Below are positions 23,317 through 36,784 of a stretch of 64,000 nt of DNA, piece after piece. The notes under the pieces were generated by a model. The model made no database searches, was not told the DNA's origin, and was given only the letters and a program-made list of their open reading frames with translations. Origin of the DNA: Pseudomonas sp. GTDB taxonomy: Bacteria > Pseudomonadota > Gammaproteobacteria > Pseudomonadales > Pseudomonadaceae. The translations under genes were made by a program, and so were the position numbers. The stretch spans positions 8,404 to 72,403 of the forward strand of contig NZ_JBOICF010000045.1 in the NCBI RefSeq assembly GCF_050739935.1, read 5' to 3'. Numbering within the stretch: the stretch's first letter is position 1; the number at the start of each line of letters is the position of its first letter.

Positions 23317-23341
23317 GCAAAACCTGTCATTTCTGACAGTA
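23317..23341. repeat. Left copy of the 25-bp perfect inverted repeat bracketing the island
   Basis: GCAAAACCTGTCATTTCTGACAGTA is the exact reverse complement of 36760-36784. It contains CTGT-N8-ACAG (23324-23339) and ends 123 nt upstream of the ATG of island gene A. Confidence 0.9.
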
Positions 23342-23464
23342 CCCAACTCGCACAAATCGGCGCTTAATCAATCGCAACTCAGCACACGAGAGCCTTGCCT
23401 GCGAGCTTGGAGATTGAGTTCAAGCAGGTTCCGCTGCCGGTACCAGAATCAAGGATGATGTCGC

Positions 23465-25417
23465 ATGAACAATCTGTTTCAGGCCGATAGCCAACGCACC
23501 AACAACGGCCATTGGGTCATAACCGAGGAGTTTGGGGCGCCTGTCGTGCCGGACATTCTCAAGGATGATGAAGGCAATGAGGAGCCCGGAGGACTGCTGC
23601 CGCGAACGGCGCTGAACGCCGATCTGGAGGTCCTCATTCCACAGTGGGAGTTCGATCAGCATCGTTTGAACATAGTGATATTGTCTTGGCGACGCGCAGG
23701 CGCCCCATTCATCCAGGTGAGCCGCTTCACTTTCGAGCCACCTATTGCGCCCGGTGATAAACAGGTTGCCGTCCTCGAGTCGATGCTGGAGGAAGGTGTC
23801 TACGAACTTTCATACAAGATCTCGCTATCGGGTAACGACGGGCGGGAGTCGTTGAAAAAAACCGTCACCGTGGACCTTACCCCGCCCGACTCAGGACAAC
23901 AGCCACGCGCGGTAGTATTTCCCCCAGAGCTGGCAGGCGTGATCTCGGAAGAGTACCTGGCCAGGGAGGGCAAGGTGGAGTGTGCGGTTCAGCCTTATTT
24001 CGAACTTCGGGCCAAGGACGTGGCGATATGGTACTGGAGCAATAGCAACCCGCCGCCTGATCTCGAAAAGGTCCAGGGCGAAGTCCTGTTTACTCAGGAC
24101 GACATCGATAACGATCGCTTGATCATCCCGGTTAACGCGCAAGTCGTCAGGCAGGCCGGGCAGGGTATTCGCTATCTGTATTACAGGCTGCGCGACCTTG
24201 CGGGAAATTTAGGTCCGCGCTCGGTGTTGTCATCCATCACGGTAGATCTGACGCCGCCACCAGAAAACCTGAAACCGGCACGCGTTCCGTTGTCCATCCG
24301 TGACCTGATCGACCGCCAGCATGCCCGTGAAGGCGCGACCTCTGAGGGCGGTGTGACGGTCGAAATCGATCGCTACGACAACGCCGAGCCCGGCCATTTC
24401 ATCATCATCGACTGGGATGGTACCGAGCTTGCCGAAGTGCCGGTCGTGCCCTCGGGATTCCCGCTACGCACCTATGTGCCCTGGGGCACGTTAACCGCCA
24501 GGGGCCTGGGCCCGATGACTGCGGAAGTGGATTATCAGGTACGTCGCGGCACGCTGCTGACACCTGCTCTGCTTCCGGTGTCGGTGCCGGTGGATTTGAC
24601 CATCGCCGGTCAGGATCACACCAATGCGCCGGCGTTGTTGAACGTCACTCTGGACAAGATCGAGGTACGCGGTCAGTACTCCGACATACCCAATACCCTC
24701 ACAGGCGCGGATTTCGGACTGGACGCGACGGCCACGGTTGCGCTGTTTCAGGATCCGCATCCCGGTGAGCGGCTGGAAGTGTTCTGGGGGCGCTCAGTGG
24801 CGGCGATCGCCGAGTATACGGTCAAGGCAAGCGACGTCGCCGGCCAGCCGATCTCCTTCACCATTCCCTGGTCGGCCATCGAGCCGGAGCTGATCAACCC
24901 TGCATTGCCGGTCTATTACCTTACCGATAACGGCGTCAACCAGCAGCTGTCACTGGAGACCAACGTCAATGTGAATATCGAGGTAATTGAAGACTTGACC
25001 GAGCCGTCGTTCCCCCATGCCGACCTTTACGGTTACCTCAACTGCGGGTCGGAGCCCAAGCTCTGGGAAGGGGTGACGGTGAGGGTTCCAGGCGACCCGC
25101 GCTTTACCGCGGGCGACCGCATCGAACTGGCGTGGCAAGGCTGCAAAAACCTTAATGGCACCGCTCCGATACCGGGGGCTTTCGCGACTTTTTCCAGGAC
25201 GTTGGACGCCGCCGAGGCCAGCAATGGCTTCGATCATGTCGTGCTGCCCTTCGACACGCTGATCGCGCCTATGGAGGACAACGGTTCGGCCACGGCCCGC
25301 TACACCCTCTATAAAACCAGCGGTACGGTCGGGCGATCTCGCACCGATGTCGTCAAGATCACCCGGACCTATGCCTCTGGCGAGGTGTGTGGCCCGGACC
25401 CTGTTTCATCTAAGTAG
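23465..25417 (+). CDS. Island paralog A: repeat-module protein of unknown family, no signal peptide
   Basis: 650 aa; ATG preceded by AAGGA. Homologous to B, D and E (for example QPISFTIPWSAIEP; TVDLTPP module boundaries). The N-terminus MNNLFQADSQRTNNGHW is hydrophilic. Confidence 0.8.
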   Translation: MNNLFQADSQRTNNGHWVITEEFGAPVVPDILKDDEGNEEPGGLLPRTALNADLEVLIPQWEFDQHRLNIVILSWRRAGAPFIQVSRFTFEPPIAPGDKQVAVLESMLEEGVYELSYKISLSGNDGRESLKKTVTVDLTPPDSGQQPRAVVFPPELAGVISEEYLAREGKVECAVQPYFELRAKDVAIWYWSNSNPPPDLEKVQGEVLFTQDDIDNDRLIIPVNAQVVRQAGQGIRYLYYRLRDLAGNLGPRSVLSSITVDLTPPPENLKPARVPLSIRDLIDRQHAREGATSEGGVTVEIDRYDNAEPGHFIIIDWDGTELAEVPVVPSGFPLRTYVPWGTLTARGLGPMTAEVDYQVRRGTLLTPALLPVSVPVDLTIAGQDHTNAPALLNVTLDKIEVRGQYSDIPNTLTGADFGLDATATVALFQDPHPGERLEVFWGRSVAAIAEYTVKASDVAGQPISFTIPWSAIEPELINPALPVYYLTDNGVNQQLSLETNVNVNIEVIEDLTEPSFPHADLYGYLNCGSEPKLWEGVTVRVPGDPRFTAGDRIELAWQGCKNLNGTAPIPGAFATFSRTLDAAEASNGFDHVVLPFDTLIAPMEDNGSATARYTLYKTSGTVGRSRTDVVKITRTYASGEVCGPDPVSSK

Positions 25418-36698: not shown

Positions 36699-36759
36699 GG
36701 CGGTTGACTCCTGTCTGTGTATCGCAGAAGTCATTGAGCGCCGCTTTGGGATCTTTGCC

Positions 36760-36784
36760 TACTGTCAGAAATGACAGGTTTTGC
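36760..36784. repeat. Right copy of the 25-bp perfect inverted repeat bracketing the island
   Basis: TACTGTCAGAAATGACAGGTTTTGC is the exact reverse complement of 23317-23341. It lies 61 nt upstream of the ATG of paralog E and 47 nt from the HAD gene stop. Confidence 0.9.

What the first reader, a model, noticed from the sequence alone, without database searches (positions are those of the whole stretch)
23317..36784. 13.4-kb accessory island: four paralogous, signal-less repeat-module proteins mirror-arranged around an autotransporter
Five large genes with no housekeeping role sit between qor (ends 23208) and a HAD hydrolase gene (ends 36832).
- Layout: A (650 aa) and B (653 aa) on +, an 880-aa autotransporter on +, then D (1216 aa) and E (780 aa) on -. 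The layout is A B AT > < D E.
- Homology among A, B, D and E is visible directly in the translations. Examples: QPISFTIPWSAIEP (A), IPFTIPWDIIEA (B) and QPVTFYIPRSLIEP (D); NIYVKLDRPGG..PGHSELTFSLPEDIVNDGVDA (E) against RIRVKLDFPGG..PGHSELAAPRLPQEVIDNGVDA (D); recurring TVDLTPP / NIDRTAP boundaries.
- I cannot assign the core module to any named family from memory. I see no catalytic or toxin motif, no immunity-like small ORF, and no integrase or transposase.
- Intergenic DNA is locally AT-rich (27.56-27.88 kb).

A four-member family in one locus plus an outer-membrane autotransporter suggests a dedicated cell-surface or host/competitor-interaction system whose function and export route are not explained by anything in the window.
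Basis: partly seen in the sequence, partly recalled or inferred. Interest (0 to 1): 0.85.

Follow-up and report, generated by a model that had tools for sequence, protein, structure and literature searches.

The report
Leaderless Ig-array proteins with autotransporter
A 13.5-kb Pseudomonas accessory gene cassette couples an ordinary outer-membrane autotransporter with four related adhesin-like proteins that have no export signal; one of them ends in an intimin-type binding head. The pairing recurs across the genus, and no study of it was found.

Summary
Between qor and a HAD hydrolase gene lie A (650 aa), B (653 aa), a classical autotransporter (880 aa), D (1216 aa) and E (780 aa).

- **Shared core.** All four non-autotransporter proteins share one co-linear ~600-aa core of Ig-like beta-sandwich domains (hhalign 99.5%, E=5e-23). 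This core is absent from Pfam.
- **No export signal.** Neither these four nor about 350 homologues have a signal peptide or membrane segment.
- **D and E.** Both add Big repeats. D ends in an intimin-type Ig plus C-type-lectin-like head (E=6e-16).
- **Accessory status.** 57 of 70 related metagenome contigs have qor directly next to HAD.
- **Three chromosomal sites.** In 23 of the 65 mapped related loci the cassette sits directly downstream of a MapA-like RTX adhesin gene.
- **Invariant part.** A-like gene(s) plus a pertactin-type autotransporter occur together in 62 of the 65 mapped Pseudomonas loci and in 7 of 8 sampled distant contexts.
- **Inverted repeat.** The 65-nt repeat bounding the island is a duplicated, conserved promoter module: an AlgR-consensus box plus a lux-type dyad.

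Best reading: a regulated surface-adhesion cassette whose leaderless proteins use a Sec-independent route not encoded in the island. Both export and function remain inferred.

The parts
23304..23368 (+). Left arm of the 65-nt inverted repeat, read as the promoter module of the A-B operon. It holds an exact AlgR-consensus box (23306-23314, reads CCGTTCGTC on the - strand), the lux-type dyad ACCTGTCATTTCTGACAGTA (23322-23341) and a -10-like CTTAAT (23363-23368).
   Evidence: The inverted repeat I1 is 82% complementary. The dyad is conserved upstream of A in 60 of 64 loci. An AlgR box with at most 1 mismatch occurs at 39 of 59 A sites, against 0.8% of random 40-mers.
23465..25417 (+). Gene A, 650 aa, leaderless. 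Residues ~22-637 (nt 23528-25375) form the shared core of six Ig/FN3-like beta-sandwich domains. An invariant AGQDHxNAP motif lies in a low-confidence linker (residues 382-391).
   Evidence: AlphaFold2 model with pLDDT 87.8. Foldseek returns only generic multi-Ig arrays.
25597..27558 (+). Gene B, 653 aa (the longest ORF starts at 25549). It is an ancient paralogue of A and lacks the AGQDH motif.
   Evidence: The order A-type then B-type holds in 52 of 65 loci, and AGQD occurs only in the first gene in 60 of 65.
27573..27604 (+). Intrinsic-terminator-like hairpin with a T-run after B.
   Evidence: Read directly from the sequence.
27750..27823 (+). Upstream region of the autotransporter. It holds two dyads, GTAGGAAAAGTCCTAC (27750-27765) and GTAGGACTTGTCCTGC (27772-27787), and two TTTTTTCGTC direct repeats (27789-27798 and 27814-27823).
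   Evidence: TCCTACAT is conserved upstream of the autotransporter gene in 37 of 63 loci.
27882..30524 (+). Classical type Va autotransporter, 880 aa. Signal peptide at residues 1-41 (27882-28004), beta-helical passenger with a Pertactin domain (29241-29591), and C-terminal beta-barrel (29736-30521).
   Evidence: PF03797 E=1.3e-53, PF03212 E=3.7e-26. TIGR01414 E=1.5e-93. N-terminus shown.
30539..30576 (.). Hairpin between the convergent autotransporter and D genes, with T-runs on both sides. Likely a bidirectional terminator.
   Evidence: Inverted repeat I15. Terminator scan. Sequence.
30579..34229 (-). Gene D, 1216 aa, leaderless. Shared core at residues 19-610 (32400-34175), further modules at 611-850 (31680-32399), Big repeats at 851-1034 (31128-31679), and an intimin-type Ig plus C-type-lectin-like head at 1035-1216 (30582-31127).
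   Evidence: A profile of the C-terminal 180 aa matches intimin 1e5u/1f00 at E=6e-16. AlphaFold2 model with pLDDT 87.
34309..34330 (-). GC-rich hairpin in the E-D intergenic region. Possibly an attenuator.
   Evidence: Read directly from the sequence. No function has been tested.
34356..36698 (-). Gene E, 780 aa (the longest ORF starts at 36734), leaderless. The core lies at about 34764-36602. One Big repeat plus a truncated second one lie at 34359-34745. The protein ends inside a Big repeat.
   Evidence: Start and ribosome-binding site.
36733..36797 (-). Right arm of the inverted repeat, read as the promoter module of the E-D operon. It holds an AlgR-like box CCGTTTGTC (36787-36795, + strand), the dyad (36760-36779) and a -10-like element (36733-36741).
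   Evidence: The same element lies upstream of the D/E operon in 28 other loci.

Best explanation
**What it is.** This is a self-contained accessory adhesion cassette native to Pseudomonas. It combines one classical autotransporter with two operons, A-B and E-D, of leaderless Ig-array proteins.

**The proteins.** All four share a ~600-aa N-terminal core of six beta-sandwich domains. D and E extend it with Big repeats. D ends in an intimin-type Ig plus lectin-like head, which I take to be the ligand-binding tip.

**Regulation.** Both Ig-array operons sit behind copies of one conserved promoter module. It holds a lux-type dyad at about -43 and an AlgR-consensus box just upstream. They are therefore probably switched on together, by a LuxR-family regulator and the surface-sensing regulator AlgR.

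**Proposed mechanism (inferred).**
- The leaderless proteins leave the cell by a Sec-independent, one-step route that is encoded elsewhere in the genome. A type I system of the Lap/Map kind is the best candidate.
- They are then held at the surface through their shared core, most likely by the co-encoded autotransporter.
- D's head would then be presented outward, as the head is in intimin and invasin.

**Shown:** gene content, homology, folds, absence of signal peptides, accessory status, the link to the autotransporter, and conservation of the promoter module.
**Inferred:** export, docking, ligand binding, and the identity of the regulators.
For: - **Folds.** A and D model as all-beta strings of Ig-like domains with pLDDT 87-88. 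No enzyme fold appears among the Foldseek matches.
- **D's head.** The C-terminal profile matches intimin D2-D3 at E=6e-16.
- **Shared core.** The A/B and D/E family profiles align co-linearly at E=5e-23.
- **Leaderless throughout the family**.
- **Composition.** The proteins are acidic (pI 4.4-4.9) and poor in cysteine. A and B keep an invariant cysteine pair, C527 and C642 in A. I read that pair as a hint of a disulfide and hence of an oxidising, extracytoplasmic location.
- **Link to the autotransporter.** The autotransporter gene follows the A/B genes in 62 of the 65 mapped Pseudomonas loci, across three chromosomal contexts. It also does so in 7 of 8 sampled distant homologue contexts.
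- **Link to a type I adhesin.** In 23 loci the cassette lies directly downstream of a MapA-like RTX adhesin gene, and the one locus checked also has a TolC-like gene upstream of it.
- **Same module in an RTX protein.** A cyanobacterial RTX protein of 3403 aa matches the A-family profile in 18 stretches.
- **Selection.** dN/dS is 0.13-0.21 for A, B, the autotransporter and D.
- **Promoter module** is conserved in both operons.
- **Regulator motifs.** AlgR consensus from PMC4787818. CT-N12-AG las-rhl box from PMC2018727 and PMC4074388.
- **Candidate regulators nearby.** Small HTH proteins of the AHL-LuxR type lie beside two distant cassettes.
Against: - No export machinery is encoded in the window or beside the cassette in contexts 1 and 3.
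- A, B, D and E have no RTX repeats.
- D's extreme C-terminus is a folded lectin-like domain, not the unstructured C-terminal signal typical of type I substrates.
- There is no direct evidence that any of the four proteins leaves the cytoplasm or touches the autotransporter.
- The autotransporter has a different upstream motif from the two Ig-array operons, so strict co-regulation is not shown.
- Two distant clusters place A-like genes beside RHS/YD-shell proteins, which hints at another role.
- The dyad also fits the LexA pattern CTGT-N8-ACAG.
Confidence: 0.45

Rival explanations
1. The four proteins are atypical, non-RTX type I secretion substrates of SiiE-like logic, exported by the Lap/Map ABC-MFP-TolC systems. 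The autotransporter is only a co-selected neighbouring adhesin and makes no physical contact with them.
For: - They are leaderless, acidic Ig arrays.
- Foldseek hits include extender domains of the RTX adhesin MpIBP, 4p99 and 5irb.
- The cassette is adjacent to a MapA-like gene in 23 loci, and the one locus checked also has a TolC-like gene.
- An RTX giant carries the same module.
Against: - There are no RTX repeats and no disordered C-terminal tail, and D ends in a folded lectin-like domain.
- The universal neighbour is the autotransporter, not a type I system.
- A and B keep an invariant cysteine pair.
Confidence: 0.2
2. The autotransporter itself is needed to export or assemble the leaderless proteins. 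This would be a new type V-associated pathway with passengers supplied in trans.
For: - The A-like gene and the autotransporter gene are almost always linked (62 of 65 mapped loci, 7 of 8 distant contexts).
- In several distant loci the autotransporter gene lies between A-like genes in one orientation.
- D has the domain order of an inverse-autotransporter passenger but no barrel of its own.
Against: - No known mechanism takes a leaderless protein across the inner membrane to an autotransporter.
- The autotransporter is entirely conventional by sequence.
- It sits in a separate transcription unit with its own motif.
Confidence: 0.12
3. The proteins are accessory or targeting components of a toxin or competition system, released by lysis or by a type VI or Tc-like route. 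The dyad is an SOS (LexA) operator, as for bacteriocins.
For: - A-like paralogues are clustered with RHS/YD-shell proteins and unknown proteins of 776-968 aa in L147 and L149.
- The dyad fits CTGT-N8-ACAG.
- Leaderless proteins with a receptor-binding tip resemble the design of a bacteriocin.
Against: - No toxin, immunity, lysis, PAAR or VgrG gene lies in the island.
- The inner TG/CA bases and the ACC flank of the dyad are conserved, which fits lux-type boxes and not LexA boxes.
- RHS neighbours were seen in only 2 of 8 sampled contexts.
- No phage relatives were found.
Confidence: 0.08
4. The proteins are not exported. They act inside the cell or are decaying remnants.
For: - No export signal of any recognised kind was found.
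- E ends inside a Big repeat.
- Truncated D-tail remnants exist in related genomes.
Against: - The ORFs are intact under purifying selection, with dN/dS 0.13-0.21.
- The family has more than 2000 clusters.
- To my knowledge, Big domains and intimin-type lectin heads are known only from extracellular proteins.
- The promoter architecture is conserved.
Confidence: 0.05

Closest known systems
Intimin/invasin inverse autotransporters (type Ve); also Acinetobacter InvL, an invasin-like adhesin without a barrel that is secreted by the type II system (PMC9245377)
   Same: D has tandem bacterial Ig repeats followed by a C-terminal Ig plus C-type-lectin-like head that is homologous to intimin D2-D3. 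The domain order is the same, with the binding tip at the free C-terminus.
   Different: D has no signal peptide, no LysM domain and no N-terminal beta-barrel. In their place is a ~600-aa Ig-array core shared with A, B and E. InvL also lacks the barrel but, as I understand PMC9245377, has a Sec signal.
Giant type I-secreted adhesins: LapA and MapA of P. fluorescens, SiiE, MpIBP
   Same: They are leaderless, acidic, beads-on-a-string Ig arrays with a ligand-binding region. Structural matches include MpIBP. The cassette often lies next to mapA (bioRxiv 10.1101/2020.05.11.089839).
   Different: The island proteins have no RTX repeats, no recognisable C-terminal signal and no adjacent ABC/MFP/OMP genes in this window. 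They are much smaller (650-1216 aa), occur as four paralogues, and are invariably linked to an autotransporter.
Classical pertactin-type (type Va) autotransporter adhesins
   Same: The central gene has every defining feature.
   Different: I know of no described type Va autotransporter that travels with dedicated leaderless Ig-array partner genes. That rests on my own knowledge and on the literature searches, which found none.
LuxR-type class II promoters (lux and las-rhl boxes) and the AlgR regulon
   Same: - The 20-bp dyad ACCTGT-N8-ACAGTA fits CT-N12-AG.
- It shares its outer arms with the V. fischeri lux box ACCTGTAGGATCGTACAGGT.
- It lies 21 nt upstream of a -10-like hexamer.
- An exact CCGTTCGTC lies next to it.
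   Different: No regulator gene lies in the island, and binding is untested. Many of the host species are, from my own knowledge, not known to make AHL signals, so a LuxR solo would be expected.

Membership tests
Type Va classical autotransporter (central gene) | N-terminal Sec signal peptide | tested here: met
   The N-terminus reads MNPIMSPTPKRRVSPKFSLSPGWSAALTAIPFLLLTPVASA. The hydrophobic stretch scores 2.04 on the Kyte-Doolittle scale.
Type Va classical autotransporter (central gene) | C-terminal autotransporter beta-barrel and pertactin-like passenger | tested here: met
   PF03797 E=1.3e-53, PF03212 E=3.7e-26. TIGR01414 E=1.5e-93.
Intimin/invasin inverse autotransporter (D) | C-terminal Ig plus C-type-lectin-like head, preceded by Big repeats | tested here: met
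   The profile matches 1e5u and 1f00 at E=6e-16 and 1e-15. Big_6, Big_3_5 and Big_2 hits are.
Intimin/invasin inverse autotransporter (D) | Signal peptide and N-terminal beta-barrel translocator (with or without LysM) | tested here: not met
   No Pfam hit falls in residues 1-850. There is no hydrophobic N-terminus. The N-terminal part models as soluble Ig-like domains.
Type I-secreted RTX/BIg adhesin (A, B, D, E) | No N-terminal signal; Ig-like extender array | tested here: met
Type I-secreted RTX/BIg adhesin (A, B, D, E) | RTX nonapeptide repeats | tested here: not met
   No HemolysinCabind hit in A, B, D or E.
Type I-secreted RTX/BIg adhesin (A, B, D, E) | Adjacent ABC transporter, membrane fusion protein and TolC-like genes | tested here: not met
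   None lie in the window or in context 3. In context 2 the cassette neighbours a MapA-like gene, and the one locus checked has a TolC-like gene.
Type I-secreted RTX/BIg adhesin (A, B, D, E) | Functional C-terminal secretion signal | not testable with these tools
   Type I signals have no reliable sequence consensus. D's C-terminus is a folded domain.
Genomic island in the classical sense | Presence/absence polymorphism at a fixed site | tested here: met
   57 of 70 contigs have the empty qor-HAD junction and 5 of 70 carry A-B-AT.
Genomic island in the classical sense | Integrase or transposase, tRNA target, flanking direct repeats, deviant base composition | tested here: not met
   - No integrase or transposase ORF appeared in the ORF list of the island.
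- tRNA genes lie only at 2388-2560.
- GC content is like that of the flanks.
- The flanking repeat is inverted and is a promoter module.
LuxR-type (lux or las-rhl box) regulated promoter | CT-N12-AG dyad of about 20 bp, placed about 40-45 nt upstream of the transcription start | tested here: inconclusive
   The dyad is present and conserved. It lies 21 nt from a -10-like hexamer. The transcription start is unmapped and regulator binding is untested.
AlgR regulon | CCGTTCGTC binding site in the promoter | tested here: met
   The site is exact at 23306-23314 and matches 8 of 9 bases at 36787-36795. It is enriched roughly 80-fold over background across loci. The consensus is from PMC4787818. Binding itself is untested.
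Type VI, two-partner or phage-derived systems | PAAR, MIX or VgrG domains; TPS domain; phage protein families | tested here: not met
   No such hits in Pfam, NCBIfam, PHROGs or PADLOC. No relatives in viral contigs.

The most novel reading that the evidence does not exclude
The conserved ~600-aa Ig-array core is a docking or export module for a previously unrecognised partnership. In it, a classical autotransporter is required to display, or even to secrete, separately encoded leaderless passengers. This would amount to a split inverse-autotransporter system in which A, B, D and E assemble on the autotransporter into a multi-protein surface fibre tipped by D's intimin-like head.
Probability: 0.15. 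Interest if true: 0.9.

Novelty: new variant of a known kind. Interest (0 to 1): 0.62.

Why it matters
- **Size of the gap.** The core family has more than 2000 clusters at 50% identity and is common in plant- and soil-associated Pseudomonas. It has no Pfam model, and no study of it was found in the literature searched.
- **Possible new mechanism.** Its strict genetic link to a classical autotransporter, with no export signal of its own, points either to an overlooked secretion or anchoring mechanism or to a new class of type I substrates.
- **Colonisation.** Either outcome would add a regulated adhesin system to models of root, surface and biofilm colonisation. In many species the cassette sits beside the biofilm adhesin gene mapA.
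- **Testability.** The predicted AlgR and LuxR-type control gives concrete conditions under which to look for expression.

Tried and rejected
- **Mobile-element ends.** The 65-nt inverted repeat looked like terminal repeats. I rejected this because the same element lies upstream of A, and of D/E, in all three chromosomal contexts at a fixed distance from the genes.
- **LexA SOS box.** The dyad fits CTGT-N8-ACAG. I considered this less likely because the inner CA/TG bases and the ACC flank are conserved as in lux boxes. It is not excluded.
- **AlgU/sigma-E promoter.** A reading of GAAC-N17-TCTGA is possible. However, the outer CCG and GTC triplets are conserved while the centre varies, which fits AlgR better. 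This is unresolved.
- **Other candidate readings.** A Pho box, a FleQ box and a double-glycine leader in D were each considered from memory and dropped on orientation, spacing or fold grounds.
- **Searches that returned nothing for the core.**
  - PHROGs, PADLOC and viral contigs.
  - Rfam and the promoter scan.
  - PDB sequence search with A.
- **Foldseek.** Both models returned only generic Ig arrays.
- **Literature.** Searches for the genes downstream of mapA (Pfl01_1464-1467) and for leaderless Ig or intimin-like proteins in Pseudomonas found no description.
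Full report
**1. The observation**

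- qor runs 22246-23208 (+).
- A runs 23465-25417 (+) and is 650 aa.
- B ends at 27558. Its longest ORF starts at 25549, and an AAGGAGG site supports a start at 25597, giving 653 aa.
- The 880-aa autotransporter gene runs 27882-30524 (+).
- D runs 30579-34229 (-) and is 1216 aa.
- E ends at 34356. The conserved promoter element and an AGGAG site place its start at 36698, giving 780 aa.
- The HAD gene runs 36832-37626 (-).

The quoted peptides are all present. The flanks are housekeeping genes: nitrate and nitrite assimilation, fklB, a GGDEF-EAL protein, prc and qor on one side, and HAD plus an ABC importer on the other.

**2. Paralogy**

By BLASTP, A and B share 29% identity over 620 aa (E=2e-36). 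D and E share 30% over 622 aa (E=2e-62). A/B against D/E is only marginal.

Profiles built from 40 A/B-family and 38 D/E-family sequences align co-linearly, A 22-637 with D 23-610, at probability 99.5% and E=5e-23. All four proteins therefore share one ~600-aa N-terminal core. D and E carry C-terminal extensions.

A and B are ancient and distinct. The order A-type then B-type holds in 52 of 65 loci. The invariant AGQD(H) motif occurs only in the first gene in 60 of 65 loci.

**3. What the proteins are**

*Autotransporter.* It is a textbook type Va protein with a Sec signal, a Pertactin domain (E=3.7e-26) and a beta-barrel (PF03797 E=1.3e-53; TIGR01414 E=1.5e-93).

*Shared core.*
- It has no hit in Pfam, NCBIfam, PHROGs or PADLOC.
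- AlphaFold2 models of A (pLDDT 87.8) and of D residues 19-1216 (pLDDT 87.0) are strings of beta-sandwich domains.
- Foldseek finds only generic multi-Ig arrays and no enzyme. The matches include complement MG domains, the RTX adhesin MpIBP and GhpA.

*Extensions of D and E.* Both carry Big_6 or Big_3_5 repeats. A profile of D's last 180 residues matches intimin (1e5u, 1f00) at E=6e-16. The match runs through the Ig domain D2 and into the C-type-lectin-like receptor-binding domain D3. E stops about 35 residues into a Big repeat.

*Physical properties.*
- None of the four has a hydrophobic N-terminus or a membrane segment.
- N-termini sampled across the 214 close homologues show no signal peptide, and none of 148 distant representatives has a canonical one.
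- All four are acidic, with pI 4.4-4.9, and poor in cysteine.
- A and B keep an invariant cysteine pair.

**4. Distribution**

- A has 128 close homologues, and every one that carries a source organism name is from Pseudomonas; all named ones are annotated as hypothetical.
- D has 94 homologues of 841-1883 aa with varying numbers of Big repeats. A few carry an RCC1 domain in place of the head.
- An exhaustive profile search finds 2064 clusters at 50% identity with E<=1e-3, and 436 with E<=1e-30.
- One hit is a 3403-aa cyanobacterial protein with 18 matched stretches plus RTX repeats.

**5. Accessory status and genomic contexts**

A metagenome scan with the qor protein gave 70 informative contigs.
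- 57 have qor directly followed by HAD.
- 5 have qor followed by A-B-AT.
- 3 of the closest relatives keep only a truncated D-tail gene.
- 2 have D/E-like genes.
- 3 have something else.

The island is therefore a true presence/absence polymorphism.

A scan of one genome per species found 63 loci, which with L001 and L002 gives 65 mapped related loci in three contexts.
- **Context 1:** prc-qor-[cassette]-HAD, as in the window.
- **Context 2:** directly downstream of an RTX adhesin of up to about 3200 aa with Big_9, Cadherin_4, VWA and RTX domains. In the one locus checked a TolC-like gene lies divergently upstream of it, as at the MapA locus (bioRxiv 10.1101/2020.05.11.089839). This context holds 23 loci.
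- **Context 3:** among unrelated metabolic genes in the P. fluorescens subgroup, with A-B-AT only.

Other points:
- D/E-like genes are present in 41 of 65 loci.
- GC content is like that of the flanks.
- No integrase, transposase, adjacent tRNA gene or flanking direct repeat was found.
- Within one genome pair (window against L003), prc is 99% and qor 95% identical. A is only 76%, B 51% and the autotransporter 63%.
- dN/dS is 0.13-0.21. The genes are functional but diverge fast, or are exchanged between lineages.

**6. The invariant unit**

The autotransporter gene follows the A/B genes in 62 of the 65 mapped Pseudomonas loci; two of the remaining three are short contigs.

Eight distant representatives were sampled for context. 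Seven again have an A-like gene next to a Pertactin/Autotransporter gene. In several, the autotransporter gene lies between A-like genes. The eighth, L147, has three A-like paralogues inside a cluster with an RHS/YD-shell protein and unknown proteins of 776-968 aa. L149 combines both arrangements.

**7. The inverted repeat is a promoter module**

A 65-nt inverted repeat (23304-23368 and 36733-36797, 82% complementary, with 25 bp identical) brackets the island. It is not a mobility feature.
- The dyad CTGTnAnTTCTGACAG lies 66-190 nt upstream of A in 60 of 64 loci, in all contexts.
- It also lies upstream of the D/E operon, in the same orientation relative to the gene.
- Degenerate copies occur in distant cassettes.

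The module reads CCGACGAACGGT, then about 7 nt, then ACCTGTnAnTTCTGACAGTAG, then about 19 nt, then GCnnTNAAT. Three parts can be interpreted.
- **AlgR box.** The first block is the reverse complement of the AlgR consensus CCGTTCGTC (PMC4787818).
  - It is exact at 23306-23314, the only exact copy in the 64-kb window.
  - A match with at most 1 mismatch occurs at 39 of 59 A sites and 15 of 28 D/E sites, against 0.8% of random 40-mers.
- **Lux-type dyad.** The dyad fits the CT-N12-AG las-rhl/lux box (PMC2018727, PMC4074388).
  - It shares ACCTGT...ACAG with the V. fischeri lux box ACCTGTAGGATCGTACAGGT, a sequence found in PMC4444344.
  - Some D/E sites read ACCTGTCAGATCTGACAGGT.
- **Geometry.** The dyad ends 21 nt before a -10-like hexamer. 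That would centre it near -43, which from memory is the geometry of class II LuxR-type activation.

Small HTH proteins of the AHL-LuxR type (GerE family, 90-93 aa) sit beside two distant cassettes. The autotransporter has a different conserved upstream dyad, TAGGA-N4-TCCTAC. All regulator assignments are predictions.

**8. Mechanism**

*Shown:* composition, folds, lack of leaders, the autotransporter link, accessory status and the conserved promoters.

*Inferred:* the proteins are extracytoplasmic. The grounds are these.
- The domain types are, to my knowledge, known only outside the cell.
- A and B keep an invariant cysteine pair.
- The neighbouring genes encode adhesins.

Because no Sec or Tat signal exists, export must be Sec-independent and encoded elsewhere. 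A type I system is the best candidate on composition, on the RTX relative and on synteny with mapA. The lack of RTX repeats and D's folded C-terminal head argue against it.

The shared core is the natural candidate for the cell-proximal anchoring part. The autotransporter is the only outer-membrane component that always travels with it. This would put D's head outward, as in intimin.

I give this composite model 0.45. The alternatives are a type I route with the autotransporter as a mere neighbour (0.2), autotransporter-dependent trans-secretion (0.12), a toxin-accessory or SOS/lysis role (0.08), and no export at all (0.05).

**9. Comparison and novelty**

- D is not an intimin/invasin family member. 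It has no barrel and no signal peptide, but it carries a homologous head.
- The four proteins are not RTX adhesins, because they have no RTX repeats.
- The central gene is an ordinary type Va autotransporter.

Literature searches found no description of the family or of its link to an autotransporter. I rate it a new variant of a known kind: an adhesin cassette with an unexplained export logic.

Noticed in passing
window 27750-27823: The autotransporter has its own conserved upstream motif: two dyads of the form TAGGA-N4-TCCTAC. TCCTACAT occurs in 37 of 63 loci. In the window, two TTTTTTCGTC direct repeats follow the dyads. The half-site resembles NarL/BvgA-type heptads from memory. The regulator is unknown.
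   Followed up: partly
L066 7090-8172 (-); also L070 and L079: The closest relatives (qor 88-96% identical) keep only a 360-aa gene between qor and HAD. It starts inside a Big repeat and ends in the D-type head. It looks like a deletion remnant of the island.
   Followed up: partly
L147 301-18899 and L149 1-16027: Distant A-like paralogues, including a recurring ~491-aa short form, are clustered with an RHS/YD-shell protein of 1311-1580 aa. Also present is a Pfam-less family of 776-968 aa whose members share an N-terminal '...PRTFGW...' motif. This may be a separate toxin-related use of the module.
   Followed up: partly
L149 16075-16347 (-) and L152 3274-3555 (-): Two homologous 90-93-aa proteins (61% identical) consist only of an AHL-LuxR-type HTH (WSAxGKTSWEIA...SESAVNFHF). 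They lie beside A-like/autotransporter cassettes. L152 also has an adjacent response regulator with a GerE domain.
   Followed up: partly
window 24608-24637 (A residues 382-391): The motif AGQDHxNAPALLN is invariant in A-type proteins and absent from B-type proteins. It lies in the only low-confidence internal linker of the model. It could be a processing or binding site.
   Followed up: no
window 34356-34460 (C-terminus of E): E ends about 35 residues into a Big repeat, so its last Ig domain is incomplete. A GC-rich hairpin (34309-34330) follows before D.
   Followed up: no
L003 and L001 compared with window 19943-34229: Flanking prc and qor are 89-99% identical between these genomes. A, B, the autotransporter and D are only 51-76% identical. 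This points to fast divergence or to allelic replacement by recombination at this site.
   Followed up: partly
proteins P0260, P0282, P0292, P0298, P0337 and others: Many distant homologues begin with a basic helical motif resembling AEQARRxYR-x5-R ahead of the first Ig domain. B has a weak version (EQSGPAKEARDTLFASRSLR). It could be a targeting signal of an unknown kind.
   Followed up: no
window 10350-14498 (+): A 1382-aa ORF fuses a molybdopterin oxidoreductase (nitrate-reductase-like) to flavodoxin, FAD-binding and NAD-binding domains. It lies next to a nirB-like gene (7099-9660). From memory this matches the assimilatory nitrate reductase fusion of the P. putida group.
   Followed up: no
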